Source of the DNA: Candidatus Jordarchaeia archaeon
GTDB taxonomy: Archaea > Asgardarchaeota > Jordiarchaeia > Jordiarchaeales > Jordiarchaeaceae
Reading direction: 5' to 3'
Length of the DNA: 21,939 nt
Assembly (NCBI GenBank): GCA_029856435.1
Contig: JAHQXB010000116.1
Coordinates: 1 to 21,939 of the forward strand
Positions 369 through 20,390 of this stretch are shown one piece after another. The notes beneath the pieces are model-generated. The model searched no databases. It was not told where the DNA came from and saw only the letters and a list, made by a program, of their open reading frames with translations. The position numbers were made by a program, and so were the translations under genes. Every line of letters begins with the position of its first letter. Position 1 is the first letter of the stretch.

Positions 369-542
369 ATGGTTAAGGGTAAATGTCCAGAGTGTGGTGC
401 CGATTTGGATCTCGAAGACCCAGTTTTAAGAGAGATTGTTGAGTGCCCAGATTGCGGATCCGAGCTTGAAGTTGTGGCGATAGAAAAGAATAAGGTGCAG
501 CTTAAGGTCGCAGAGATCGAAGGCGAGGATTGGGGCCAATAA
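369..542 (+). CDS. lysW: LysW/ArgW amino-group carrier protein (57 aa, Zn finger), C-terminus EDWGQ
   Basis: Not in the ORF track; translated by hand: MVKGKCPECGADLDLEDPVLREIVECPDCGSELEVVAIEKNKVQLKVAEIEGEDWGQ*. Two CxxC motifs, acidic composition, EDWG motif, SD GAGGTGA, and first position in a lysXYZJK operon. Confidence 0.95.
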   Translation: MVKGKCPECGADLDLEDPVLREIVECPDCGSELEVVAIEKNKVQLKVAEIEGEDWGQ

Positions 543-592
543 GTAACGCTAACATTATTGAAGAAGGGTTGCGTTTATTGAAAAAGATCTAG

Positions 593-1456
593 GTGGGTGA
601 ATTGGTAACTATCGGCATGGTAAGTGATCGGGTGAGATGGGATGAGAAGGCACTAATTCAAGCTGCGCGTAATAAAAATGTCAAATTGGTGGTTATTGAC
701 GCGAAAAGTATTTTCTTAGAAGCTACTGGAAACTGTGATCATATTCCGGAGGCGGACATTTACCTTCAGCGTATGGTGAGCACATTTAAGGGTCTTTATA
801 TCACCAAAATTTTGGAGAGTAAGGGGTATCCAGTAGTTAATTCTTATGACGTTTCCAGTATTTGCGCAGACAAGCTTTTAACAACGCTGGCTTTAACCAA
901 AGCAGGTGTGCCTAGCCCCAGAACATTTTTGGCTGTTGATATAGACTCGGCTCTACAGATTTTAGAGGAACTGAAATATCCTGCAGTAATTAAACCCGTA
1001 TTTGGCAGTTGGGGAAGATTGATCGCTCCGTTAAAGGATCCTCAATCTGCAAAGGCCATAATTGAGAGTAGAGAGTCTATGGGAGCACTTTACCAGATTT
1101 ATTATATTCAGGAATTTGTGGAAAAAGTAAATAATAGGGATATTAGAAGCTTTGTCATTGGTGACGAGGTCGTTACTGCTATTTATCGAGTCGCCGGTCA
1201 AGGCGAGTGGCGCACAAACACTGCGCTTGGAGGACGAGCGGAAATTTGTCCCGTAACCCCTGAGATTGAGGATTTGAGTCTAAGGGCTGCAAAAGCCATT
1301 GGGGAAGGAGTTTATGGGGTAGATATATTAGAAAGCCCGAATGGTATGCTTGTTAATGAAGTTAATCACACGATGGAATATCACACAACTGTACCCTTAA
1401 CAGGTGTGGATATCCCTGGAATGTTAATTGATTATTGTTTGGAGATGTTAAAATGA
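593..1456 (+). CDS. lysX: LysX/ArgX-type ATP-grasp ligase (LysW--aminoadipate/glutamate ligase, RimK family)
   Basis: Motifs IKPVFGSWGR, YIQEF, RDIR, WRTNTALGG and EVNHTME. Follows lysW. The true start may be the TTG at 602 (SD AGGTGGG upstream). Confidence 0.92.
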   Translation: MGELVTIGMVSDRVRWDEKALIQAARNKNVKLVVIDAKSIFLEATGNCDHIPEADIYLQRMVSTFKGLYITKILESKGYPVVNSYDVSSICADKLLTTLALTKAGVPSPRTFLAVDIDSALQILEELKYPAVIKPVFGSWGRLIAPLKDPQSAKAIIESRESMGALYQIYYIQEFVEKVNNRDIRSFVIGDEVVTAIYRVAGQGEWRTNTALGGRAEICPVTPEIEDLSLRAAKAIGEGVYGVDILESPNGMLVNEVNHTMEYHTTVPLTGVDIPGMLIDYCLEMLK

Positions 1457-2502
1457 GAGCTGGAGTTGTTGGAGCTTCAGGATATACGGGTGGAGACCTA
1501 GTAAGACTGTTACTCTTCCACCCTAAAGCCGAGTTAACCTGTGTAACTTCTAGACAGTTTTCCGGAAAATATTTGAGTAGTGTGCACCCGAATCTGAGAG
1601 GGATAACCCAGATAAAGTTTGAAGAGTATGACGTGAACAGGGTTTCTGATAAATGTGACTATGTTTTTCTCAACGTGCCCCACCGAGCTTCTATGAACAT
1701 AGTGCCTGAACTACTTCAAACAGGAGTAAAGGTAATAGATTTGAGTGCGGATTTCAGAATTAAAAGCCAAGAGGTCTATGAGTACTATTATGGTAAACAT
1801 GAACATCCTGAACTATTAGGCAAATCAGTATATGGAATTTCCGAACTTCACAAAGAGGAAATTAAAAAAGCTAACTTGGTTTCCTGTCCAGGATGTCTAG
1901 CTTCAAGCGCCATACTGGGGGCGGCTCCCCTTGTTAGCACAGGGGCTGTAGACTTGAACAGAATAGTAATCGATTCAAAAGTGGGTTCTTCAGCCTCAGG
2001 AAGAGAATTTTCCTTGTCTACCCACCACCCCGAAAGGGCAAATGTCGTGAGACCATATAAGGTTACCAATCACAGGCACACTGCCGAAATTGAGCAGGAA
2101 CTAAGTGCGGTAGCTGGGAAGTCAGTGAAAGTCGCGTTCTCCGCTCATGCAGTAGATATGGTGCGGGGTATTCTATCTACTATACATATGTTTCTGGAAA
2201 AAGAACTTACTGAAAAAGATATTTGGAGTATTTTTCGGGAATTCTATGGCGATGAGCCGTTCATAAGACTAGTTAAGCAGAAAACTGGAATCTACCGATT
2301 GCCGGATCCCAAAGTCGTTGTTGGAACCAACTACTGCGATATTGGCTTCGAGTTAGATGAGCACATGCCACGCATAGTAGTTCTCTCCGCTTTAGATAAT
2401 CTAATTAAGGGGGCTTCGGGACAAGCAGTACAGTGTATGAACATTATGGAAGGTATAGACGAAACTACTGGTCTAACTTTCCCAGGGCTTCACCCATATT
2501 AA
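1453..2502 (+). CDS. lysY: [LysW]-aminoadipate/glutamate-phosphate reductase (ArgC family)
   Basis: Motifs GASGYTG, DLSADFR, catalytic CPGC, SSASG, HRH and DNLIKGASGQAVQ. The ATG at 1453 overlaps the lysX stop (ATGA), so it is preferred over the track start at 1435. Confidence 0.93.
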   Translation: MRAGVVGASGYTGGDLVRLLLFHPKAELTCVTSRQFSGKYLSSVHPNLRGITQIKFEEYDVNRVSDKCDYVFLNVPHRASMNIVPELLQTGVKVIDLSADFRIKSQEVYEYYYGKHEHPELLGKSVYGISELHKEEIKKANLVSCPGCLASSAILGAAPLVSTGAVDLNRIVIDSKVGSSASGREFSLSTHHPERANVVRPYKVTNHRHTAEIEQELSAVAGKSVKVAFSAHAVDMVRGILSTIHMFLEKELTEKDIWSIFREFYGDEPFIRLVKQKTGIYRLPDPKVVVGTNYCDIGFELDEHMPRIVVLSALDNLIKGASGQAVQCMNIMEGIDETTGLTFPGLHPY

Positions 2503-2518
2503 TCGAGGATGCGATTAA

Positions 2519-3331
2519 ATGAAAATAGTGGTAAAAATTGGCGGTAGCTTAATTGATGAGGATTTATCACCCCTAGCGCGCGACGTAAAAGAACTTTCCA
2601 AGGAACACCAGATAGTTATAATACACGGTGGAGCAAAAATTGTCACCGAAATTGCGCAAAAACTGGGTAAAGAGCAAAGATTCGTCACCTCCCCTACTGG
2701 TTTTAGAAGTAGATACACCGATGCTGAAACCGCAGAAATTTACACCATGGTCATAGCAGGTACGGTAAACAAAAAGCTGGTAACAGTTCTATTAAAGGAA
2801 GGTGTGAATGCCATAGGGCTCTCAGGGATTGATGGGGGACTCCTAATAGCAGAAAGAAAGCCAAGAATCAAGGTTAAAGAGGGAAACAAGGTACTCCTAA
2901 TGGATGGTGATTACACAGGAAAAGTGGTGCAAGTTAACACTAAACTCCTAGAACTACTATTAAATGCAGGTTATGTCCCAGTTATAGGCGCAGTAGCAAT
3001 CGGTAAAGAAGGCGAAAACCTGAACGTAGACGGAGACAGGGCAGCTGCAAGTGTTGCAGGAGCCATAAAAGCGGATAAACTGTTAGATATGACAGACGTA
3101 CCCGGAGTTCTCGAGAACGAGAAGATAATAACAAAATTAAGCATATCGGAAGCAAAACAGGCCATGGAGAAAGTTGGCCCTGGTATGCGGAGAAAGATCT
3201 TTGCAGCATTGGAGGCACTACGCGAAGGTGTACCAGAAGTGGTAATAGCTTCTGGAATTGGAGAACACCCCCTCACTAATGCTTTGGAAGAGAAAAACTG
3301 TACGGTGATTACTAATGAGTCAGTCGAATAA
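2519..3331 (+). CDS. lysZ: [LysW]-aminoadipate/glutamate kinase (ArgB family)
   Basis: Motifs VVKIGGS, IHGG, SRYTD, LNVDGDRAA, TDVPG and GMRRK; operon position. Confidence 0.93.
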   Translation: MKIVVKIGGSLIDEDLSPLARDVKELSKEHQIVIIHGGAKIVTEIAQKLGKEQRFVTSPTGFRSRYTDAETAEIYTMVIAGTVNKKLVTVLLKEGVNAIGLSGIDGGLLIAERKPRIKVKEGNKVLLMDGDYTGKVVQVNTKLLELLLNAGYVPVIGAVAIGKEGENLNVDGDRAAASVAGAIKADKLLDMTDVPGVLENEKIITKLSISEAKQAMEKVGPGMRRKIFAALEALREGVPEVVIASGIGEHPLTNALEEKNCTVITNESVE

Positions 3332-4502
3332 TGCCAAAAGATATATGCTTCTAGAAGATACCTACGAAGCCCAAACTTACGCTAAAAGACCCGTAGTAAT
3401 TGTTAGGGGAAAAGGCGCCCTAGTCTGGGACACCGAAGGTAGAGAGTATATAGATTGTGTAGCAGGACATGGGGTAGGCATCACCGGTCACTGTCACCCC
3501 AAGGTCGTAGAAGCCATAAAAAATCAGGCTGAGAAGCTTATCACTTGTTCTGGTATACTATACAACGACGTCAGAGCGGAACTTGTGGAAAAAATAACAA
3601 AAATAGTTCCCAAAGGACTAACAAGAACTTTTCTTTCAAACAGTGGAGCAGAGGCAGTAGAGTGCGCCCTAAAATTGGCTCGTAAATACACAGGCAAGAA
3701 GGAAATTATAGCTATGACTAAAGGATTCCATGGACGTACCTTGGGGGCGCTCTCAGCTACTTGGGAGAAAAAGTACAGGGAGCCTTTTGAACCTTTGATT
3801 CCGGGATTTACCCATGTAAAATTTGGTGACGCTGGAGAAGTTCGAGAGGCTATAAATGAGAAAACTGCTGCGGTTTTGGTGGAGCCTGTACAGGGAGAAG
3901 CAGGAGTTAATCCTGCGCCCAACGGTTATCTGGAGGAGTTAAGAGATATTTGCGATGAAAAGAATGTTCTGTTAATATTTGATGAGGTTCAGACTGGGTT
4001 TGGTAGGACTGGGGAAATGTTTGCCTGTATGCATTGGAAGGTGACTCCTGACATTATGGCCGTGGCTAAAGGAATTGCTGGTGGAGTACCTATGGGTGCT
4101 ACTATTGCTAGAGAGGAGATTATGGGGTCCCTTAAAGAAAGTGAACATGCTTCAACGTTTGGTGGAAACCCACTTGCTTGTGCTGCTGCAAACGCTGCAA
4201 TAGACGTTATAATAGAGGAGAAACTTCCTCAAAGATCTAGGGAATTGGGATTACGCTTAAAAAATAAGTTGGAAACCATTAGGGAGAACTCTAAGATTGT
4301 AAAAGAGGTTAGAGGACTGGGTTTAATGATTGGCATCGATTTACGTTTCAGAGTAAAGGATTATGTGCTAAAATCTTTGGAAAAGGGACTGTTGGTTTTA
4401 ACTTCGGGACTAAGCACCCTCAGACTTCTACCCCCGTTAGTTATTGAAAAGGAACAAATTGATAAAACTGCGGATATTTTGGCGGAGGTATTGGAGACCT
4501 GA
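3315..4502 (+). CDS. lysJ: [LysW]-semialdehyde aminotransferase (class III PLP, ArgD family)
   Basis: Motifs NSGAEAVE, FHGRT, EPVQGEAG, DEVQTGFGRTG, AKGIAGG (PLP lysine) and STFGGNP. Overlaps the lysZ 3' end. Confidence 0.93.
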   Translation: MSQSNNAKRYMLLEDTYEAQTYAKRPVVIVRGKGALVWDTEGREYIDCVAGHGVGITGHCHPKVVEAIKNQAEKLITCSGILYNDVRAELVEKITKIVPKGLTRTFLSNSGAEAVECALKLARKYTGKKEIIAMTKGFHGRTLGALSATWEKKYREPFEPLIPGFTHVKFGDAGEVREAINEKTAAVLVEPVQGEAGVNPAPNGYLEELRDICDEKNVLLIFDEVQTGFGRTGEMFACMHWKVTPDIMAVAKGIAGGVPMGATIAREEIMGSLKESEHASTFGGNPLACAAANAAIDVIIEEKLPQRSRELGLRLKNKLETIRENSKIVKEVRGLGLMIGIDLRFRVKDYVLKSLEKGLLVLTSGLSTLRLLPPLVIEKEQIDKTADILAEVLET

Positions 4503-4505
4503 AGA

Positions 4506-5564
4506 ATGGAGCCTCAAGATTTTCTTAAAAAAATGCTTGAAATCTATAGTCCCTCAGGAAAAGAAGCAGAACTTGCAAACTTTCTCTTCCACCAGATGAA
4601 AGAATTGGGTTTTGATGCAGAGATAGACGAGGTTGGAAACGTCATAGGTAGAATTGGAAAAGGGACTCCAACTCTACTACTCTGCGGTCATATGGATACA
4701 GTTGAAGGATACCTACCAGTACGACTAATTAATGGCGAATTAACTGGTCGGGGAGCAGTTGACGCGAAATCCTCCTTGGCCACCCTTATACTTGCTGCGG
4801 CAAATTTTGTGAATAAAAAAATAAAAGGAAGCATAGTTGTTGTGGGTACAGTGCAAGAGGAGGGAACTTCTGAAGGAATAATACACATAGTAAACAAAGG
4901 TTTAAAGGCAGACTACTCAATTTTTGGAGAACCTTGTAACACCAATTTTATTGTGGTAGGCTATAAAGGAAGCTTAAACGTTGAAATTGAGATTAGAACT
5001 GAACCAGGCCACCCTGCCAACCCTACTGTTAAAAATGCTAGCGAAGAATTAATCTCCATTTGGCTGAAAATTAAGAGTGAGTTAGGGAAACACCAATCCA
5101 AATCAAAGCAGGATTCGGTAAGCATATCCTTAGGACGATTGAATGGTGGTGAAAATCAAAGCACAGCAGAAATAAGGGTCAGGATACCCTTCAAAATGCG
5201 TTGTGACGAAATCTATGAAGTAATAAACCGTATACTTCAAGCACACCAAGAAGAGAACAATGGGGTAAAGGGCATGCTTAAAGTTATAGATAAAACTGAG
5301 CCCTACCAATCTGATAAGAGGTCACCATTAGTAAATGCCTTAAGTAGTTCAATAATGGAAGTTACGGGAGAGGAAGCCCGCCTAATTAAAAAAACTGGAA
5401 CAGGCGATATGAATATTTATGGGAACAGGGTCAAAACTGCGGCTGTTACCTACGGTCCTGGGGATCCTCGCTTAGACCATACGGAATACGAAAAAATATC
5501 TATAAAGCAGTTTTTAGATACAATTGAAATTCTGACTAAGACAATTGAGAAATTGCTGCTCTAA
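4506..5564 (+). CDS. lysK: [LysW]-lysine/ornithine hydrolase (M20 family)
   Basis: Motifs GHMDTV, GRGAVDAK, QEE, GEP, GDMN and YGPGD..LDHT..E. Last gene of the operon. Confidence 0.92.
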   Translation: MEPQDFLKKMLEIYSPSGKEAELANFLFHQMKELGFDAEIDEVGNVIGRIGKGTPTLLLCGHMDTVEGYLPVRLINGELTGRGAVDAKSSLATLILAAANFVNKKIKGSIVVVGTVQEEGTSEGIIHIVNKGLKADYSIFGEPCNTNFIVVGYKGSLNVEIEIRTEPGHPANPTVKNASEELISIWLKIKSELGKHQSKSKQDSVSISLGRLNGGENQSTAEIRVRIPFKMRCDEIYEVINRILQAHQEENNGVKGMLKVIDKTEPYQSDKRSPLVNALSSSIMEVTGEEARLIKKTGTGDMNIYGNRVKTAAVTYGPGDPRLDHTEYEKISIKQFLDTIEILTKTIEKLLL

Positions 5565-5567
5565 AAC

Positions 5568-6650
5568 TTAGATACGTAACGGCTGCTTCTCCATTTTCTC
5601 TTTTTTCTCCTTCCTCTCCTTGATTTTTTGTTCAAGCTCTGAAACTAAAGGAACCATTTCCTCCGACGTTTCAAAGGCCATAACCCTCTTCAACGGTCTC
5701 ATCCATTCCAAAACTAGCGAAGCATGCTCCAATAAACTGAGTACTTGTAATGTGGCCTCTTTGCCAGCTTCGGAAAATATGTTAGCTAGGGTATGAGCTA
5801 AGGTTTCAATGTCTCCTTTTGGCAAAGCATAAGACTTTTCCAGTTTTAAGGGCATACTAAAAGTTATGGGCCCCGTTTTGCTTTCTCTTTTGCTTTCAAA
5901 ATTGATTTCCCCAGTCAGAGAGCATATATAGGTGGTATTTATGTCGGCTTTAAACCTACAGTTCCACTTTGTTTCCCATTTTTCCTCGTCGCTTCTCTTC
6001 TTAGCTATATGCCTCAATATCATTCTACACTTATCAACCATGGGTATAGCTAATACCGAATGTTTTGACTCTCCAAACTTGATAACCTCGTTGTAAAGAG
6101 GCTTCAAAAGTTCCTCCACTCTTTTTCGGAGTTCATTTACTTTAAAGCCCAAAAAAGTTTTTTCAGGTAAACCTCTATCGAGAGCACTTACAAATTTACC
6201 CTCATAAAATTCATATTTAGAAAGAGCGTTGCAATTAGGGCAGCCAAACGCGCCAAACACCCTCCCTTCCAACTCAACAAATTCCTCCTCCAATTCGGAA
6301 TCTAAAAAGAAATCTGTACTGCATTTGGGACAGCTTACTATGACCGGAAAACGATCTATCGAGTCATGATTTTTATATGCACTCACTAATTTCTTCGTTT
6401 CCTCATATATTGATTGAATATCCAAATCAGTAATACTCTTTAAGCCCTGTAAAACTTCGTCTCGATTGTCAATAAGGAGATTTTTAATAATTCTTCGAAA
6501 ATTCTTCTCTCTCTCCTTCCTAGCTTCCTCTGAGACTTCCTTAGCCCTCATAATGATATTTTCCGCTTCCTTCTTGGCAATCTCTAAAATCGAATCCGCC
6601 TTCGCTTTAGCATCCATAATAATTCTGTCAGCATCCCCAGACAAAACCAT
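5568..6650 (-). CDS. Hypothetical protein with N-terminal 11-residue-repeat coiled coil and a central CxxC...CxxC Zn ribbon
   Basis: 360-aa ORF with SD GGAGGTG before the ATG. Repeats ADRIIMDAKAK / ADSILEIAKKE / AENIIMRAKEV; CPKC and CPNC. Convergent with lysK across a 3-bp gap. Confidence 0.8.
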   Translation of the reverse strand: MVLSGDADRIIMDAKAKADSILEIAKKEAENIIMRAKEVSEEARKEREKNFRRIIKNLLIDNRDEVLQGLKSITDLDIQSIYEETKKLVSAYKNHDSIDRFPVIVSCPKCSTDFFLDSELEEEFVELEGRVFGAFGCPNCNALSKYEFYEGKFVSALDRGLPEKTFLGFKVNELRKRVEELLKPLYNEVIKFGESKHSVLAIPMVDKCRMILRHIAKKRSDEEKWETKWNCRFKADINTTYICSLTGEINFESKRESKTGPITFSMPLKLEKSYALPKGDIETLAHTLANIFSEAGKEATLQVLSLLEHASLVLEWMRPLKRVMAFETSEEMVPLVSELEQKIKERKEKKEKMEKQPLRI

Positions 6651-8188: not shown

Positions 8189-8638
8189 CTAAATAGGTAT
8201 CATGTGAGTTTCTTTTCTCGTTTTTAAGGAAAGGTAGCACTCCACTTTTAACAAGCCCTCAATTGATTTTAGTTCTTTTGTGATGAACTCCCTCATTGAT
8301 TCTATATTCCTGTCTCGAACTTTAATGAGAATATTCTTCTCGCCGAATAAAAGGTGTAATTCCAGAATTTCTGGAAAACTCATTAACTTATTGATAATTT
8401 CTTCCTCCTTTGAAGGCTCTACGGCAAGCATTATAAATGCTAAACTTGTAAGTCCTACAGCTTCAGGATTAATGATGGTGGTAAAACCTTCGATGACCCT
8501 TTCTTCTTGGAGCTTTTTTACTCGGTTATACAATGTTGGTTCAGAAATGTTCAGGTCTGTAGCAATCTTTCTAAAAGGTCTCCGAGAGTCTTCCTGAAGG
8601 AGCCTCAGTATTTTCCTATCTACCTCTTTGACCTTCAA
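8189..8638 (-). CDS. Lrp/AsnC family transcriptional regulator
   Basis: N-terminal HTH (DRKILRLLQEDSRRPFRKIA..L.ISE.TL.NRVKKLQEE.VIEGF) plus RAM domain. Start is probably the TTG at 8638 after AGGTGG (track start 8647). Confidence 0.92.
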   Translation of the reverse strand: MKVKEVDRKILRLLQEDSRRPFRKIATDLNISEPTLYNRVKKLQEERVIEGFTTIINPEAVGLTSLAFIMLAVEPSKEEEIINKLMSFPEILELHLLFGEKNILIKVRDRNIESMREFITKELKSIEGLLKVECYLSLKTRKETHMIPI

Positions 8639-8743
8639 AACTGCCACCTGCTCACTTGCACGTCAAGTAGTTAGCTTTACAGAGGCTTTCTCTTTGGAGA
8701 CCCTGCGTACCCTTTTAATATTGTCGCTTGTCTGTTTAATTTA

Positions 8744-9806: not shown

Positions 9807-10559
9807 GTGATGGTGATGGAATCCATCGATGAACTTTCCAAATTGTTGGAAGAAATAGTAAGAGACGATGTAATAAAAGGAATAATTCTGATTAGCAAAG
9901 AGGGGAAATCAGAATCAATGGTGATCCTAGAAGAAAAGATTAATAAAAGTAAGCTAGCGGCCGCCAGTGCCACCCTACTTTCGATTTCTTCACAAATTAT
10001 TGGAAAGCTATTGGAACAAAATCCAGACTATGTACTCTCCTTTACGCCCAATAACTTAGTTATAACTTTGCCGGTCAATACGGGCATGGTTCTTTCTGCA
10101 CTAATTGACAGAGAAAAGGCCGAAAGCAAGGGTGTTGAAAATTACATCACCAAAATTCAGAATTTTTCCCATAAAGTGGCTGAAGTGATAGAGCTCTCCG
10201 GATATCCTAAAAAAGGATTATTTATGAATGTTAAAAATGTGATGCCGGAGGCCAAGGCAATTGCTATCCTTACCAAGGAGGGAGTGCCCCTAATAGTGCA
10301 CCCCATGGAGGAAGCAATAACTCTCTCCGGAATGATTAGCGCCATTTTTATGATAAGTAGCAGTATGGTTTCTGATGAAAATAGCGACTACTCAGTTATT
10401 GTTGGTAAAGAAGGGATGGTTATTACTCTACAAATCGATAATGATAGATTACTTTCAGTGGCCCTCCCAAAAAAGATGAAAATAAAAGACATTATAAAAA
10501 AGCTTAAAGAGGCTATAAAAGAAAGTGAAAAACATAGTGATTTGGAGGGCTCCACTTAA
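9807..10559 (+). CDS. Tandem Roadblock/LC7 (MglB-like) domain protein
   Basis: Two repeats of the Roadblock pattern: GIILISKEGK...KLAAASATLLSISSQI...V and AIAILTKEGVP...LSGMISAIFMISSSM...VIVGKEGMVI. SD AAGGTGA; the start may be one of the downstream in-frame ATG/GTG codons (9810-9816). Confidence 0.75.
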   Translation: MMVMESIDELSKLLEEIVRDDVIKGIILISKEGKSESMVILEEKINKSKLAAASATLLSISSQIIGKLLEQNPDYVLSFTPNNLVITLPVNTGMVLSALIDREKAESKGVENYITKIQNFSHKVAEVIELSGYPKKGLFMNVKNVMPEAKAIAILTKEGVPLIVHPMEEAITLSGMISAIFMISSSMVSDENSDYSVIVGKEGMVITLQIDNDRLLSVALPKKMKIKDIIKKLKEAIKESEKHSDLEGST

Positions 10560-10561
10560 CT

Positions 10562-11761
10562 GTGGTTGGAAACCAGTCAACTGTTCTTGTCTTGGGATTT
10601 AATGCTAGACCAATAGTTTCCTCAGCAAAAAGATTAGGACTAAAAGTTTTGGTGGTGGACTACTGGGGAGATGTTGACATCTATAAATATGCAGATGAGG
10701 TACTAGTAGTTAATGAATGGGGCAAAGGACTAGACACCACAAAAAGCCACACCAGTCTTTTCTTGAAGCTGGCTCAGAACTTGGCAGAAAAACATGAGAT
10801 TGATTTTATTTTGGTGGGGAGTGGTTTTGATGATCAATTTCAGTTTTGGGAAGAACTCAACAAGGTTGCTCCTGTAATAGGTAACACTTCAGAAAATATT
10901 AAAAAATCTAGAGATAAAATAAGGATTTATCGTGAAGCAGAAAAATTGGGCATTCACTCTCCAAACTCAATCATTGTAAAAAGTGTGGAAGATGCTGTAG
11001 AGGCGGCGGAATTAATAGGGTTACCGGTAGTGGTTAGACCAACGAAAGGAGGAGGAGGACAAGGGATTCATTTAGCCAAGAATATTAAAGAAGTTGAGGG
11101 AATATTTCACTTGCTATCGAGCCAAGGAAATGTAATGATTCAGGAATACATTAAGGGTATCGATGCGAGTTGCTCCCTTATCTCAGATGGCACATCGGCG
11201 CTGGTAGTTTCTATTAATGAGCAGTTAATTGGCTTATCTGAGCTGGGCGCAAAAGATTTTACTTATTGTGGAAACATTGTGCCCCTAAAGGCCACAGAAC
11301 AACTATACAAAAAAATAAAAGATGCCTCCGAAAATTTAATCGAATCATTAAATCTTAAGGGCTCAAACGGGATAGACTATGTTATTCGCAGAGGTGAACC
11401 ATACCTATTAGAGATAAATCCCCGTTTTCAAGGCACGCTTGAGTGTGTTGAAATGGTAACTGGACTAAATATAGTTGAAGCCCACATAGAGGCTTGCCAA
11501 GGGATATTGCCTAAAAGTATTCCCCAAAACAAAGGTTACGCCGTGAAAAATATTTTGTTCGCCAAACATGATTTCATAATGCCTGAACTTACTATGTCTG
11601 GGATATTCGATATCACAAAACCTGGATCTGTAATTAGGAGAGGGAAGCCAGTTTGTACAATTCAAATCTACGCATCAACCCGAAGCGGTGCATTATTTAA
11701 AGCAAAAAGAGTGGCGGAAAGAATTTACAGTAAATTTAGAAAAACAAGACTGAATACCTAA
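10562..11761 (+). CDS. ATP-grasp domain protein (archaeal COG2232-like putative carboligase)
   Basis: N-terminal VLVLGFNARP...DYWGDVD and GSGFD; ATP-grasp motifs GGGGQG, IQEYIKG, GIDY and LEINPRFQGT. Starts 2 bp after the Roadblock gene stop. Confidence 0.8.
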   Translation: MVGNQSTVLVLGFNARPIVSSAKRLGLKVLVVDYWGDVDIYKYADEVLVVNEWGKGLDTTKSHTSLFLKLAQNLAEKHEIDFILVGSGFDDQFQFWEELNKVAPVIGNTSENIKKSRDKIRIYREAEKLGIHSPNSIIVKSVEDAVEAAELIGLPVVVRPTKGGGGQGIHLAKNIKEVEGIFHLLSSQGNVMIQEYIKGIDASCSLISDGTSALVVSINEQLIGLSELGAKDFTYCGNIVPLKATEQLYKKIKDASENLIESLNLKGSNGIDYVIRRGEPYLLEINPRFQGTLECVEMVTGLNIVEAHIEACQGILPKSIPQNKGYAVKNILFAKHDFIMPELTMSGIFDITKPGSVIRRGKPVCTIQIYASTRSGALFKAKRVAERIYSKFRKTRLNT

Positions 11762-13706: not shown

Positions 13707-15878
13707 TTAACTTAATTTTTGTTTTTCCGTTGAGCTTGAGGTTCTCCACCACAGTATGAGTATGTATATTGCAACAGCTAAGTACATTAATGCCCAAGGG
13801 AATCGAAGAATGACTTCTTCAATACTTTTGGGCATTGAGTATGCATGAATTATCCCCACTAGTGATAGTAGGCAAGAGGCGGCCGCAAATATGAAGGCTC
13901 TTCTCAAACGTCTATGATTTAGGTCTGAGACTATACTTCCCCAGATTAGTCCCACAGTTGTTGCTCCTAATCCTAAAAATACTATTCCATACCAGCCGAA
14001 TGTGGCACTTGAATAGCTAAATGTTTCATTTAAACCGTATCCATAGAGACCCAAATACTGGGCAAATGGTATTTTTAAGGGTATGCCTGCAATACTCACA
14101 GTTACAAAAAATATGTTGTCTAATAGCTGATAAGGCGTTATTGATGTACTCATTAATGCTCCAGTAAAGGCATTTTTAAAATTATTGATTATTATTAGGG
14201 TTAACACCGTGAATACGTGTGGAACCATTGCCAGCATTACCGCGAATAAGTCTCCCCAAATAATGTAGTCTGGACTATCCTTTTTTCTGTTTTCATCATA
14301 AACTTCCTTAAAAGATTGAACTACAATTAATCCTCCAATTACCAGAAGAACTGGTACCATAACACAGGGGGGGATGATTATGGGCAACAAGAATAGAATT
14401 CCGCACCAAACTGTTGCCGCAATGATTATTCCGTGGAGTAGAGAGTATCCGATCCCTGCCCCCATTCTGACAAAGCTTGCTGAGCCCACAGAATTCACGG
14501 TTGGCGTCCATCCGCCAAAAGGAGTTCCAAGCAGACTACTACATCCATCTATGAGCATAGTGGTCTTTGCAGAGTACCCGTACTGGTCGCACCAAAGCTT
14601 CAAGCTCTCTGGATCCTCTATTCCGAATTTGCGTGCCATTTCTAAGTTTCCTGATTCATTGTTGGCGTAGCTCTCGAGAGAGTCATAGATTTGGAAAGGA
14701 ACAACTACCGCTATAATCATTGGTAGAGCTTGTAGCCCGCGGCCCAAAAGCTCTGGTCTAAAACTTGGAACCATAAAGCTGAAGGTTTGTAAATAAATGT
14801 AATTGGTAATATCCTGCCCAAGATTTAGGGCGATTAAAAATTGGGGGCCCAGCCCACCCCAAATCTGAGCCCACATCTCTTTAAAATAGAAGAAGAAATC
14901 TCCAAAATTGGTGTTTCCCAGCCACAAAATGTTAATTGCTACAAGAACTGATCCAACAATTATTGCCAGTAAAGTTGTTGGAATTTTTTTAAAGATTCTT
15001 AAGCGAGAAATTATCCCCGCTAGTAATATAAATAGTACCACAAATCCGATTGTAGGCGATAGGTAAGGCCATCCATTAAGAGCACCATACACACCATTGA
15101 CGGGGCCTCCGGCTATGTAGCCTAGGTAATTAAGGATAAGCCAAGCAAAACCTATTCCTGCAATTGTGCCTAGTACCCCTGCTGTGGGTATGTTTTTTCT
15201 TAAGTGTTCTATTAAGCCAAGCGCTATTATGATCTCAATAATTGAGCTGATAATATTAGCTAAAATGGCTATGGAAATCGCGGTATATAAATCAAAGCCA
15301 AGGACTGACTGAGAGAGTCCGATTATTGCACCAAGAAAAAGAAACAATCCGGGTAAGCTTATGCCGAAGGGTAATGCGGTGTAAATTTTTCCTGTTTCCA
15401 TTGTTTTTTTATAGGCATAGTAACTGTAAGCAAAATTTCCTATAAGAACTTGTAGCGCGCCCGCGCCCAGAAGAGTTGAGATTAAGCCCCAAGGCTTATG
15501 GGGAAAGAGTATCTGTAAATCTGTGGGCAGATAGTATCCCTGAGGGATAATTACGGGGATCTGATTTCCCAAGATGTGAATTATACCTACAAGATCCGTT
15601 GGTGCAACGTATATTCCTGTTAGGGCGGAGAAGTACCATGCAGGAATAAACTGCACGCTCCAAATGATAGGGAGTAAACCAATTAGTAAGATAAATAGGG
15701 TAAAATTATCTGCAAACAGAGCAACGGCTCCGTTAATATCCTCTCTTTTCCAGATTTTAATGGTACCCCTGTTAAATAAGCTGAGGAAAAAATCATAAAT
15801 GGAAGGTTCACCCAGAGAAACCATTTCAGGGATTGAAGGCTTTCTCCTATTCTCATTAACGCACAAATTTTTCACCAC
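13707..15878 (-). CDS. Large polytopic permease, NCS2/nucleobase-transporter-like
   Basis: Many hydrophobic segments. Segments WKREDINGAVALFADN, YTALPFGIS.P, MLIDGCSSLLG..FGG..PT and MGAGIGYSLLHG resemble the xanthine/uracil/vitamin C permease-like family. Directly downstream of purM. Confidence 0.65.
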   Translation of the reverse strand: MVKNLCVNENRRKPSIPEMVSLGEPSIYDFFLSLFNRGTIKIWKREDINGAVALFADNFTLFILLIGLLPIIWSVQFIPAWYFSALTGIYVAPTDLVGIIHILGNQIPVIIPQGYYLPTDLQILFPHKPWGLISTLLGAGALQVLIGNFAYSYYAYKKTMETGKIYTALPFGISLPGLFLFLGAIIGLSQSVLGFDLYTAISIAILANIISSIIEIIIALGLIEHLRKNIPTAGVLGTIAGIGFAWLILNYLGYIAGGPVNGVYGALNGWPYLSPTIGFVVLFILLAGIISRLRIFKKIPTTLLAIIVGSVLVAINILWLGNTNFGDFFFYFKEMWAQIWGGLGPQFLIALNLGQDITNYIYLQTFSFMVPSFRPELLGRGLQALPMIIAVVVPFQIYDSLESYANNESGNLEMARKFGIEDPESLKLWCDQYGYSAKTTMLIDGCSSLLGTPFGGWTPTVNSVGSASFVRMGAGIGYSLLHGIIIAATVWCGILFLLPIIIPPCVMVPVLLVIGGLIVVQSFKEVYDENRKKDSPDYIIWGDLFAVMLAMVPHVFTVLTLIIINNFKNAFTGALMSTSITPYQLLDNIFFVTVSIAGIPLKIPFAQYLGLYGYGLNETFSYSSATFGWYGIVFLGLGATTVGLIWGSIVSDLNHRRLRRAFIFAAASCLLSLVGIIHAYSMPKSIEEVILRFPWALMYLAVAIYILILWWRTSSSTEKQKLS

Positions 15879-17675: not shown

Positions 17676-18410
17676 ATGAGTAAAGTTGAGGTAAGGCGTT
17701 GTGAGAGTTGTGGAACCACATTTCTATCGGTGCGCGAAAACTGTCCAAACTGTGGAAAACTTACACACCAATCAAAAACGAAACTCAAAACAAGTCCAAA
17801 ACTCTCCCAGAATAGTACAACACTAATCATCCCTTTAGCCAGAACCTCTAAAGAATCCAAAGAAGAACTAGAATTTATTCCCAGCAAGCTAATAAATCAA
17901 CCAATTCTGGAAAAAACTCCCGAGTTCTCAGATTTTCTTGGATCTGGCTTTTCAATAAACGCAATAGCCTCAGAAAAAAAGATACACTACGAAATAGAAA
18001 ACGTTGGAAAAGAGTTTCAAGGATTCGCAGAATGCGAAAACACCAAATCAGGCCTAATAATGATTTTTAAAGACGCCAAAGGAATAATTACCGTCACAAT
18101 CGAAGGAAACCCTCAATACACACACTATGTTCTAAAAGACCGATACAACAAAACAATAGGCACTATGCAGCAGCAAGGTATCCTAAAACCGAGTTACACC
18201 ATAGAAGACCTCAAAAACAATATGAAACTCTCAATAAGAGGAGACCCAACAAAAAAAGAATACTCAATAGTAAAAAATGGGCAAAGCTACGCAACTATAC
18301 TGAAAACCTCACCTGAAACATACAAAATAGAAATAAAAAACAAAATTGACAAAAGAATACCAATACTCTTCTCAATAATAATAGACGCCATACAAAGAAG
18401 AAAAAAATAA
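17676..18410 (+). CDS. Zn-ribbon protein with C-terminal LURP-one/scramblase/Tubby-like domain
   Basis: N-terminal CESC-x10-CPNC. C-terminal IGTMQQQGILKPSYTI...SIRGD...EYSI..NG..YATI.K....TYKIEI....D....ILFSIIID resembles LURP-one-related proteins. Confidence 0.6.
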   Translation: MSKVEVRRCESCGTTFLSVRENCPNCGKLTHQSKTKLKTSPKLSQNSTTLIIPLARTSKESKEELEFIPSKLINQPILEKTPEFSDFLGSGFSINAIASEKKIHYEIENVGKEFQGFAECENTKSGLIMIFKDAKGIITVTIEGNPQYTHYVLKDRYNKTIGTMQQQGILKPSYTIEDLKNNMKLSIRGDPTKKEYSIVKNGQSYATILKTSPETYKIEIKNKIDKRIPILFSIIIDAIQRRKK

Positions 18411-19352: not shown

Positions 19353-20390
19353 TTGGGTAATTATGAACCCTATGTTGACAGACTTTTCGACCTTTTGCTG
19401 CAAGTATTCGAAATAGGAGAGCTGGGGTTAAGTATCATTGAAGACTCCCTCTGGTTCATAGAAAAAATAATTGAGAAAACCCCTAGACAAGAGGAAAGGG
19501 ATGCGTTTTCCCTAATACGGCAGGCTGTTAACTCTTGGATGCATCATCTAAGAATGCGTAGAGCTTTTGGGGAAACCGCCGTTTTTCCACCTCAAGAAAT
19601 CATCTACTGGAAAAAGGCAGCTCAAATCTTCAGTGATCTGAAAAAAGATAAACTCTCTGAAATAACCCAAGTATTGGGCAAACTCCGAGAAGCCGAGGAT
19701 AATATACTGGTAGGTGATTTTGATAGAGCAATATTTGCATACCGTGAAGCTGAAGAAACACTGGAAAAACTAGGAAAAAAGGCGGCGCTCACCGCTAAAA
19801 GGAAAAGACTAAACATACAGGCAGAAATTTTCTACTCAAAACAAGAATTCCAAAAAGCATCAGAAATCCTATTCCAAATAGCCGAAATCCTTGGAAAAAC
19901 TGGATTTCAAAACAAAGAGGCCACATTAATAAGAGCACATGAATTATTAGTGCTCCACGAAGGAAATAGAGGAAACTGGGAGAAAGTATCCGAACACCAG
20001 ATGGAAATAGCCCAACTCCTAAGACTCATAGGCCAAGAAGAGAAAGCCCTCATCGCAGAATACTACGCATACACGGCATCCGCAAGGAGCGCCGAAGAAC
20101 AGGAAAAATGGGAACTCGCAGCAAAAAAACATCTTAAAACCTCAGAAATACTAAACTGCATAGGAAACCCAGTCAGCGCCCTATACGCAAAACTAAACTA
20201 CCACATCTGCAAGGAAAAAGCAGAAAACAAATCTCCAAAATGGCTAAATGACGCAGAACAACTCACCAAAAAAGCACGCACAAAGAGCGCCAAAGACACC
20301 AAAGAACTGGAAAAAGAAGTAAAAGAAATACTCGCCCTCATAGAACAAGAAAAACAAATCAGAAACTGCTCAAAAATGGGCACAAATTAA
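19353..20390 (+). CDS. All-helical TPR-like repeat protein
   Basis: TTG start after AGGTGA. Recurring units GDFDRAIFAYREAEETLEKLG, QEFQKASEILFQIAEILGKTG, GNWEKVSEHQMEIAQLLRLIG and EKWELAAKKHLKTSEILNCIG. Confidence 0.75.
   Translation: MGNYEPYVDRLFDLLLQVFEIGELGLSIIEDSLWFIEKIIEKTPRQEERDAFSLIRQAVNSWMHHLRMRRAFGETAVFPPQEIIYWKKAAQIFSDLKKDKLSEITQVLGKLREAEDNILVGDFDRAIFAYREAEETLEKLGKKAALTAKRKRLNIQAEIFYSKQEFQKASEILFQIAEILGKTGFQNKEATLIRAHELLVLHEGNRGNWEKVSEHQMEIAQLLRLIGQEEKALIAEYYAYTASARSAEEQEKWELAAKKHLKTSEILNCIGNPVSALYAKLNYHICKEKAENKSPKWLNDAEQLTKKARTKSAKDTKELEKEVKEILALIEQEKQIRNCSKMGTN

What the first reader, a model, noticed from the sequence alone, without database searches (positions are those of the whole stretch)
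369..542. LysW carrier ends in Gln (EDWGQ), lacking the gamma-carboxyl that carries the substrate
Seen: the last codons are GAG GAT TGG GGC CAA TAA. Established: in Thermus and Sulfolobus, LysX/ArgX ligates aminoadipate or glutamate to the gamma-carboxyl of the C-terminal Glu of EDWGE. A terminal Gln has an amide there, yet all five partner enzymes look intact with tight operon spacing. Inference: the carrier may need priming by deamidation (the operon's M20 amidohydrolase LysK already cleaves gamma-amides at this position), or chemistry may use the alpha-carboxyl or transamidation, or the carrier may serve a different product. I recall Q-ending LysW paralogues in some other archaea but cannot verify that. 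CAA versus GAA is a single base.
Basis: partly seen in the sequence, partly recalled or inferred. Interest (0 to 1): 0.8.

Follow-up and report, generated by a model that had tools for sequence, protein, structure and literature searches.

The report
Glutamine-ended LysW lysine carrier protein
The small carrier protein this Asgard archaeon uses to build lysine is encoded with a terminal glutamine where the known chemistry needs a glutamate; the change is real, inherited, kept by selection and recurs in many microbes, so an undescribed uncapping or attachment step must exist.

Summary
Observation confirmed. Window 369..542 (+) is a 57-aa LysW ending EGEDWGQ (CAA at 537-539). It heads an intact lysW-X-Y-Z-J-K operon.

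It is not an error. The exact protein lies on at least 23 contigs; the 10 places shown come from 10 samples. Four species of the genus carry it, while two sister species and all other close homologues end in Glu.

In the Q clade lysW has 8 synonymous and 1 non-synonymous variable sites, and all operon genes have omega 0.02-0.19.

The genome has a second, Glu-ended LysW, but in an arginine cluster (argG-argH-lysW-lysX-lysZ-lysK) that lacks its own LysY and LysJ. The window's ligase carries the lysine-type signature.

Gln-ended LysW recurs in 70 genomes of many phyla and is the only LysW in 8 of 9 genomes tested.

In a bacterial family, E and Q forms interleave (80:40, no other residue; at least 6 switches among 35 operons). 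No LysX column and no release-hydrolase column tracks the switch.

Best reading (0.55): a pro-carrier deamidated to Glu, probably by LysK, as Dop does for PupQ. Rivals are alpha-carboxyl ligation, direct use of the amide, or a decoy.

No paper describing this was found. The scan noted the same thing earlier in at least 8 other genomes.

The parts
369..542 (+). lysW (paralogue A): 57-aa zinc-ribbon amino-group carrier protein ending EGEDWGQ
   Evidence: PF21344 58.8 bits, TIGR01206 62.3 bits. Identical protein on at least 23 contigs.
537..539 (+). CAA codon for terminal Gln57 (Glu in all characterised LysW); stop TAA at 540-542
   Evidence: Invariant in the four Q-clade species, while 8 synonymous sites vary elsewhere in the gene. 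GAG or GAA in sister species G002 and G005.
593..1456 (+). lysX: ATP-grasp ligase of the RimK family, lysine (aminoadipate) type; the true start may be TTG 602 or ATG 617
   Evidence: TIGR02144 318.8 bits against 275.6. Signature positions F/I/T/T-T against Thermus LysX F182/I192/T203/N258-S259 (motif from PMC12998189). Omega 0.02-0.05.
1435..2502 (+). lysY/argC: [LysW]-aminoadipyl/glutamyl-phosphate reductase; the only true copy in the genome
   Evidence: TIGR01850 430.6 bits. The only hit above cut-off in the genome. Omega 0.02-0.06.
2519..3331 (+). lysZ: [LysW]-aminoadipate/glutamate kinase
   Evidence: NF010662 263.1 bits against 194. Omega 0.02-0.06.
3315..4502 (+). lysJ: class-III aminotransferase
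   Evidence: TIGR00707 484.4 bits against 410. Omega 0.06-0.09.
4506..5564 (+). lysK: M20 metallohydrolase that releases lysine from LysW; candidate deamidase of Gln57 (inferred)
   Evidence: TIGR01902 296.7 bits against 163.1; NF003367 306.1 bits, below its 363 cut-off. Omega 0.09-0.19, the least constrained gene of the operon in both Q and E species.

Best explanation
The gene is a real, inherited, functional LysW of the lysine (alpha-aminoadipate) branch, made as a pro-carrier. Shown: the terminal Gln is encoded, conserved in a four-species clade, and under purifying selection together with its five partner enzymes. Shown: Gln-ended LysW is the sole carrier in several other genomes. Shown: only Glu or Gln ever occupies the last position, and the two swap freely between sister operons with no matching change in the ligase or the release hydrolase. 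Inferred: the side-chain amide of Gln57 is hydrolysed once to give Glu57 (+0.98 Da). After that the ordinary cycle runs on the gamma-carboxyl: LysX ligation of aminoadipate, then LysZ, LysY, LysJ, then LysK release. Each later turn regenerates the Glu form. Inferred: the likeliest deamidase is LysK itself. It already hydrolyses a gamma-glutamyl amide bond on this same residue of this same protein, so ammonia would merely replace lysine as the leaving group. This mirrors Pup, which many actinobacteria encode with a C-terminal Gln; Dop, the enzyme that also removes Pup from its targets, deamidates it. Within the 0.55 given to priming, I put about 0.35 on LysK and about 0.2 on an unlinked amidase (for example the GATase_4 paralogues on contigs C75 and C154) or heat-assisted spontaneous deamidation.
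For: The codon is real. It is found in 10 samples and in four species at 93-95 % nucleotide identity.

Selection acts on the gene. In lysW, 8 of 9 variable sites are synonymous, where about 20 % would be expected under neutrality (my binomial estimate P about 2e-5). Omega for X, Y, Z, J and K is 0.02-0.19.

The change is derived. Sister species G002 and G005, the order-level relatives and 109 of 111 homologues end in Glu; the other 2 of the 111 are truncated or frameshifted.

The Q type works as a carrier elsewhere. It is the only LysW-family hit in 8 of 9 Q-type genomes tested.

Only E or Q is tolerated. None of 229 full-length homologues has another terminal residue, even though K, D, A, G, V and stop are also one base away from GAA. 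Over 73 loci Gln is encoded by CAA 38 times and CAG 35 times.

E and Q are interchangeable. A LysX tree of 35 bacterial operons needs at least 6 state changes and the label is not clustered. No LysX or hydrolase column separates the two types. Sister operons L138 (E) and L079 (Q) are 93, 92 and 87 % identical in LysX, LysY and LysZ.

No Q-specific gene was found. The operon layout is the same in Q and E species of the genus. The small Ntn hydrolase of bacterial operons is present in 7 of 7 E-type operons as well.

Every complete Q-type operon seen keeps a hydrolase for the release step, either M20 LysK or the Ntn type.

Precedent: PupQ and Dop (PMC8599861).
Against: No biochemical or proteomic datum exists. 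Deamidation by LysK is inference only.

LysK shows no clear Q-clade-specific acceleration or signature. Its dN is 0.15-0.16 between Q and E species and 0.108 between the two E species, a ratio within the range of the other genes.

If Gln were fully neutral, one might expect polymorphism inside the Q clade; none is seen. The clade is young, though (dS 0.03-0.23 in lysW).

This genome has a second, Glu-ended LysW, so the Q form is not proven indispensable here.

The nearest enzymatic relatives of LysX (RimK, MptN, CofF) ligate to an alpha-carboxyl (family names), which keeps that rival alive.
Confidence: 0.55

Rival explanations
1. Alpha-carboxyl ligation. LysX attaches aminoadipate to the free alpha-carboxyl of the terminal Gln, as RimK-type ligases do, and LysK later cuts an ordinary peptide bond. 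No deamidation is needed.
For: LysX belongs to the RimK family (TIGR00768 298.5 bits), and its neighbours MptN, CofF and RimK are named alpha-L-glutamate ligases. M20 enzymes include carboxypeptidases (established knowledge). No extra gene would be needed, which fits the unchanged operons.
Against: If the side chain were a bystander, other residues should appear at the end, yet 0 of 229 do. A two-carbon shift in linkage would touch five enzymes. Even so, E/Q sister operons are 87-95 % identical with no discriminating column in LysX, and E/Q flips at least 6 times in 35 operons. According to a figure legend in PMC12998189, the solved Thermococcus complex shows aminoadipate attached to the terminal Glu; that the bond is on the gamma-carboxyl is my knowledge of that literature.
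Confidence: 0.12
2. Direct use of the amide. LysX, or LysK run in reverse, converts the Gln amide straight into the gamma-glutamyl-aminoadipate bond with release of ammonia. For example, an acyl-phosphate could form by phosphorolysis, as proposed for Dop. The first loading would then need no separate priming step.
For: Dop, a ligase homologue, acts on an amide through an active-site phosphate (PMC8599861). No extra gene is needed. Only E or Q is tolerated.
Against: No ATP-grasp enzyme is known to me to do this (my knowledge, not tested). LysX shows no Q-linked change. The reaction is uphill at the acyl-phosphate step.
Confidence: 0.1
3. Decoy or retiring gene. In this genus the Glu-ended paralogue LysW-B has taken over as carrier for both branches, and the Gln-ended LysW-A cannot be loaded. 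It either persists as a regulator or competitor, or is on its way out.
For: A second LysW ending EEDWGE exists in all six species of the genus. One LysW serves both branches in Sulfolobus (PMC12998189). The two clusters already share LysY.
Against: After the change, lysW-A shows 8 synonymous to 1 non-synonymous variable sites. LysX-A, LysZ-A and LysK-A, which have counterparts in cluster B, are still under strong constraint (omega 0.02-0.19). The Q type is the only carrier in 8 of 9 other genomes tested, so a Gln end does not disable a carrier.
Confidence: 0.1
4. Sequencing or assembly error, or a private mutation of one assembly.
For: GAA to CAA is a single base. Reads could not be inspected.
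Against: The same codon is present in 10 independent samples and four species, and the same ending occurs in 70 genomes.
Confidence: 0.01

Closest known systems
LysW/ArgW amino-group carrier proteins of Thermus thermophilus (PDB 3wwl), Thermococcus kodakarensis (5k2m chain E) and Sulfurisphaera tokodaii (3vpb chain E), with LysX/ArgX, LysZ, LysY, LysJ and LysK
   Same: Homologous zinc-ribbon domain (E 8e-14 to 6e-8), the same acidic EDWG tail, the same six-gene operon and the same enzyme families. The adjacent ligase has the lysine-type signature.
   Different: All three solved carriers end in Glu; this one is encoded with Gln, which has no gamma-carboxylate to activate. The genome also runs a second, Glu-ended carrier cluster for arginine that borrows LysY from this operon.
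Pup (PupQ) with Dop and PafA in Actinobacteria
   Same: A small protein is ligated through the gamma-carboxyl of its C-terminal Glu. In many species it is encoded with a terminal Gln, and related species have E or Q forms. The enzyme that cleaves the conjugate also deamidates the Gln (PMC8599861). The E/Q lability seen here is the same pattern.
   Different: There is no sequence relationship: LysW is a zinc ribbon. LysX is an ATP-grasp enzyme and LysK an M20 hydrolase, not glutamine-synthetase-like enzymes. The conjugate is a biosynthetic intermediate, not a degradation tag. Deamidation is not shown here.
RimK-family alpha-L-glutamate ligases (RimK, MptN, CofF)
   Same: LysX is a member of this ATP-grasp family. 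These enzymes act on a C-terminal or terminal glutamate of their substrate.
   Different: By their family names they extend from the alpha-carboxyl, while characterised LysX and ArgX use the gamma-carboxyl (established knowledge). Whether the Q-type carrier switches to alpha is the main chemical rival and is untested.
Bacterial lysW-HCS-lysX-lysY-[Ntn hydrolase]-lysZ-lysJ operons (Melioribacteraceae, Ignavibacteria, Acidobacteriota, Calditrichia and others), seen here
   Same: They carry Gln-ended LysW in many members, and E and Q forms interleave among close relatives.
   Different: A 206-214 aa class-II glutamine-amidotransferase-like hydrolase stands where LysK would be, in both E and Q operons. 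The window keeps the M20 LysK, and its genome has no close homologue of that operonic hydrolase, only distant GATase_4 paralogues that E-type sisters also have.

Membership tests
LysW/ArgW amino-group carrier protein (AmCP) | Small zinc-ribbon globular domain with two CxxC pairs | tested here: met
   CPEC and CPDC are in the sequence. PF21344 58.8 bits against 27, TIGR01206 62.3 against 53.2. NF041070 scores 64.7, below its cut-off of 75.
LysW/ArgW amino-group carrier protein (AmCP) | Acidic C-terminal tail ending in the EDWG motif | tested here: met
   The tail reads ...AEIEGEDWG and aligns end to end with the three solved LysW chains.
LysW/ArgW amino-group carrier protein (AmCP) | C-terminal Glu whose gamma-carboxylate receives the substrate amino group | tested here: not met
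   The encoded residue is Gln (CAA 537-539). It is Glu in 3 of 3 solved carriers and in 109 of 111 homologues of the first search; the other 2 are truncated or frameshifted. Whether the mature protein carries Glu cannot be told from sequence.
LysW/ArgW amino-group carrier protein (AmCP) | Encoded next to a LysX/ArgX ATP-grasp ligase and the LysZ, LysY, LysJ and LysK enzymes | tested here: met
   The operon spans 369..5564 and all members are above curated cut-offs.
Lysine (aminoadipate) branch rather than arginine branch | LysX five-residue specificity signature (Thermus F182, I192, T203, N258/S259) and aminoadipate supply | tested here: met
   The window's LysX has F, I, T, T/T. The cluster-B ligase has F, M, A, H/I. 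Sulfurisphaera ArgX has I, Y, V, G/F (motif from PMC12998189). Homocitrate synthase TIGR02146 scores 459.9 bits against 413.6. lysA and dapA score only below their cut-offs.
Pup-like pro-form (works like, not a member) | Encoded C-terminal Gln, with E and Q forms alternating among relatives | tested here: met
Pup-like pro-form (works like, not a member) | Gln deamidated to Glu by the enzyme that also cleaves the conjugate | not testable with these tools
   This needs mass spectrometry or an ammonia-release assay with LysK. It is an analogy only (PMC8599861).
RimK-type alpha-carboxyl ligation | New bond made on the alpha-carboxyl of the terminal residue | not testable with these tools
   Indirect evidence against: only E or Q is tolerated at the end, and LysX shows no co-variation with E/Q.

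The most novel reading that the evidence does not exclude
The Gln-ended carrier is loaded without first becoming Glu. Either aminoadipate is joined to the alpha-carboxyl, or the ligase or hydrolase swaps the amide's ammonia directly for the substrate amine. Either way, a core amino-acid pathway would use a chemistry not known for ATP-grasp ligases or amino-group carrier proteins, across many bacterial and archaeal phyla.
Probability: 0.2. Interest if true: 0.85.

Novelty: new variant of a known kind. Interest (0 to 1): 0.62.

Why it matters
LysW-mediated lysine and arginine synthesis is regarded as an ancient route and is the textbook case of a protein used as a protecting group. All its biochemistry rests on a terminal glutamate.

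In this survey about a third of one large bacterial LysW family, and scattered archaeal lineages including this Asgard genus, encode glutamine there instead. In most Q-type genomes tested it is the only carrier. Either a maturation step is missing from the pathway as described (a Pup/Dop-like uncapping in primary metabolism), or the attachment chemistry differs.

Both options can be tested directly with a 57-residue protein and two enzymes. The outcome affects how these operons are annotated and modelled, since a Gln-ended LysW currently reads as 'LysW' with no caveat. It could also reveal a nitrogen- or growth-linked control point, as is still debated for PupQ.

Tried and rejected

Sequencing error: rejected.

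A Q-specific extra amidase: a single-protein search with the bacterial operonic Ntn hydrolase found nothing in this genome. The family model found three GATase_4 paralogues, but these also occur in the E-type sister species, so none is tied to the Gln.

The earlier lead that Gln-ended carriers occur only where an extra amidohydrolase replaces LysK: rejected. 7 of 7 Glu-ended operons of the same family carry that hydrolase, and the window's clade has Gln with a normal LysK.

LysK acceleration in the Q clade: LysK is the least constrained gene in E species too, so there is no clear signal.

Co-variation of LysX or the hydrolase with E/Q: none.

Ammonia-oxidising archaea: the phylum-level sample around G046 held only 43 genomes and did not reach them, so that lead is untested here.

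Literature: no paper with 'EDWGQ', none with LysW plus deamidase, and none linking LysW to a terminal glutamine. The library lacks most subscription papers, and PMC4281745 is not held, so absence there is weak evidence.

Not run: structure prediction and complex prediction. LysW with LysK or LysX is a textbook pair, and a pass would not separate the mechanisms.

Full report
**1. The observation**

Window 369..542 (+) encodes a 57-residue protein with two CxxC pairs and the tail EGEDWGQ. The last codons are GAG GAT TGG GGC CAA TAA, with CAA at 537-539. It is a LysW by sequence: PF21344 scores 58.8 bits against a cut-off of 27, and TIGR01206 scores 62.3 against 53.2. The archaeal LysW/ArgW model NF041070 falls short at 64.7 against 75.

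Downstream lie lysX (593..1456), lysY/argC (1435..2502), lysZ (2519..3331), lysJ (3315..4502) and lysK (4506..5564). All are intact, closely spaced or overlapping, and above curated cut-offs.

**2. Not an error, and not private**

The exact protein is, however, recorded on at least 23 contigs. The ten places shown come from ten different JGI, NCBI and SRA-derived samples, and all read TGG GGC CAA TAA.

In the genome collection, four species of the genus (G000, G001, G003, G004) carry Gln; their operons are 93-95 % identical at nucleotide level. Two further species of the genus (G002, G005) carry Glu. So do the order-level relatives and 109 of 111 homologues; the other two are truncated or frameshifted. 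The change Glu to Gln (GAA/GAG to CAA) is therefore derived and arose once inside the genus.

**3. Selection**

Among the four Q-clade species lysW has nine variable sites. Eight are synonymous and one is K40N, and the CAA codon does not vary. With 35 synonymous and 136 non-synonymous sites this is far from neutral expectation (my binomial estimate is about 2e-5).

Pairwise omega by gene:

| Gene | omega |
|---|---|
| lysX | 0.02-0.05 |
| lysY | 0.02-0.06 |
| lysZ | 0.02-0.06 |
| lysJ | 0.06-0.09 |
| lysK | 0.09-0.19 |

The carrier and its dedicated enzymes have stayed under constraint since the change.

**4. Which pathway**

The genome has a second LysW on contig C59. It ends EEDWGE and sits in the order argG, argH, lysW-B, lysX-B, lysZ-B, lysK-B, next to a carbamoyltransferase. 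That cluster has no reductase or aminotransferase. The window's lysY is the only true argC/lysY in the genome, so the two systems share at least that enzyme.

The specificity signature defined for LysX-family ligases (PMC12998189) reads as follows:

| Ligase | 182 | 192 | 203 | 258/259 |
|---|---|---|---|---|
| Thermus LysX | F | I | T | N/S |
| Window's ligase | F | I | T | T/T |
| Cluster-B ligase | F | M | A | H/I |
| Sulfurisphaera ArgX | I | Y | V | G/F |

A homocitrate synthase scores above its cut-off, while lysA and dapA score only below theirs. The Gln-ended carrier is thus the lysine-branch carrier, and the Glu-ended one most likely serves arginine.

**5. The phenomenon is widespread**

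A degenerate DNA pattern for E-[G/E/D]-E-D-W-G-Q-stop found 73 loci in one-genome-per-species contigs, where I estimate about four by chance. Seventy of them are real zinc-ribbon LysW genes.

- Bacterial lineages: Melioribacteraceae and other Ignavibacteria, Acidobacteriota, Calditrichia, KSB1, Thermoflexus, Planctomycetota and Gemmatimonadota.
- Archaeal lineages: Methanosarcinales, Undinarchaeales, Nanoarchaeota, Thermoproteota and the window's own clade.

The Gln is encoded by CAA 38 times and CAG 35 times. In eight of nine such genomes tested it is the only LysW-family gene, so a Gln end is compatible with carrier function.

**6. E and Q are the only options, and they swap freely**

None of 229 full-length homologues from two searches ends in anything but E or Q, although K, D, A, G, V and stop are equally one base from GAA. 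In the bacterial family around Stygiobacter the listed cluster representatives split 80 E to 40 Q.

On a LysX tree of 35 operons the carrier's E/Q state needs at least six changes, at least three of them forced by well-supported branches. The label is no more clustered than shuffled labels. No column of LysX or of the release hydrolase separates the two types. Sister operons L138 (E) and L079 (Q) are 93, 92 and 87 % identical in LysX, LysY and LysZ.

The Q and E samples were gathered in different ways, so frequencies are not representative, but the interleaving is real.

**7. No dedicated uncapping gene**

Most bacterial Q-type operons carry a 206-214 aa class-II glutamine-amidotransferase-like (Ntn) hydrolase between lysY and lysZ and have no lysK. 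I find it in seven of seven Glu-ended operons of the same family. It therefore stands in for LysK regardless of E or Q.

The window's genus has Gln with a normal M20 LysK, and the same operon layout in Q and E species. The genome's three standalone GATase_4 paralogues also occur in E-type sisters.

**8. Mechanism**

The pattern has three parts: only E or Q is allowed, they flip often, and no partner co-adapts. This is what one expects if Gln is converted to Glu by something already present.

The carrier is recycled, so one hydrolysis per molecule would suffice, and selection against Gln would be weak. The release hydrolase (LysK here, the Ntn enzyme in the bacterial operons) already cuts a gamma-glutamyl amide on this very residue. 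Deamidation is the same reaction with ammonia as the leaving group.

The documented precedent is Pup. It is encoded with a terminal Gln in many actinobacteria and is deamidated by Dop, which is also the depupylase (PMC8599861).

My odds:

| Reading | Probability |
|---|---|
| Deamidation priming (all routes) | 0.55 |
| - by LysK | about 0.35 |
| - by another amidase or heat | about 0.2 |
| Alpha-carboxyl ligation | 0.12 |
| Direct use of the amide | 0.10 |
| Non-loadable decoy, LysW-B taking over | 0.10 |
| Error | 0.01 |

- Alpha-carboxyl ligation is chemically sensible for a RimK relative, but it fits poorly with the strict E/Q rule and the lack of co-adaptation.
- Direct use of the amide by the ligase or hydrolase has no known ATP-grasp precedent.
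- The decoy reading conflicts with the constraint on lysW, lysX, lysZ and lysK.

LysK shows no clear Q-specific acceleration, so nothing in its sequence points to a new activity. That is compatible with a promiscuous reaction but is not evidence for it.

**9. Novelty**

I found no paper that mentions a Gln-ended LysW. The library lacks the founding subscription papers, so this is weak evidence of absence. All three solved carriers end in Glu.

The scan itself has noted the same feature in at least eight other genomes, including sister Jordarchaeia. My independent tests agree with those notes on reality, recency and selection, and they contradict one note on the hydrolase association. I class the finding as a new variant of a known kind.

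Noticed in passing
G000 contig C59, locus L110:5855-11773 (+): A second carrier cluster reads argG, argH, lysW-B (ends EEDWGE), lysX-B, lysZ-B, lysK-B. It has no reductase or aminotransferase. The only true argC/lysY of the genome is the window's, so two carrier systems appear to share LysY and probably LysJ.
   Followed up: partly
L110:12668-13657 (-): The carbamoyltransferase beside the arginine cluster scores best as N-acetylornithine carbamoyltransferase (NF003384, 398 bits against a cut-off of 288) rather than plain ornithine carbamoyltransferase. In a LysW-based pathway there is no acetylornithine, so its real substrate, possibly carrier-bound ornithine, is open.
   Followed up: no
L012, L015, L016, L030, L132, L134, L136, L138-L141 and others: Bacterial operons read lysW, homocitrate synthase, lysX, lysY, a 206-214 aa GATase_4-like Ntn hydrolase, lysZ, lysJ, with no M20 lysK. 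The small hydrolase most likely replaces LysK as the release enzyme and is present whether the carrier ends in E or Q.
   Followed up: partly
window 4506-5564 and its orthologues in G001, G003, G004: dS between the same genome pairs differs strongly from gene to gene. For example, G000-G004 gives 0.06 in lysW, 0.16 in lysY and 0.45 in lysK. This suggests recombination within the operon among the Q-clade species.
   Followed up: no
window 8189-8647 (-): An Lrp/AsnC-family regulator lies 2.6 kb downstream of the operon. Sulfolobus controls lysWXJK with the Lrp-like LysM (PMC3597687, abstract listed), so this is a candidate regulator.
   Followed up: no
window 5568-6650 (-), 13707-15878 (-), 17676-18410 (+), 19353-20390 (+): ORFs of 360, 723, 244 and 345 aa have no Pfam family. 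The first has only a weak V-ATPase subunit E-like hit in NCBIfam.
   Followed up: no
window 9807-11761 (+): A 250-aa protein with a Roadblock/LC7 domain is followed directly by a 399-aa ATP-grasp enzyme of unknown substrate.
   Followed up: no
L101 (G024, another family of the same phylum): A further, independent Gln-ended LysW (ends ...IEAEDWGQ) turned up in a different family of the same phylum.
   Followed up: no
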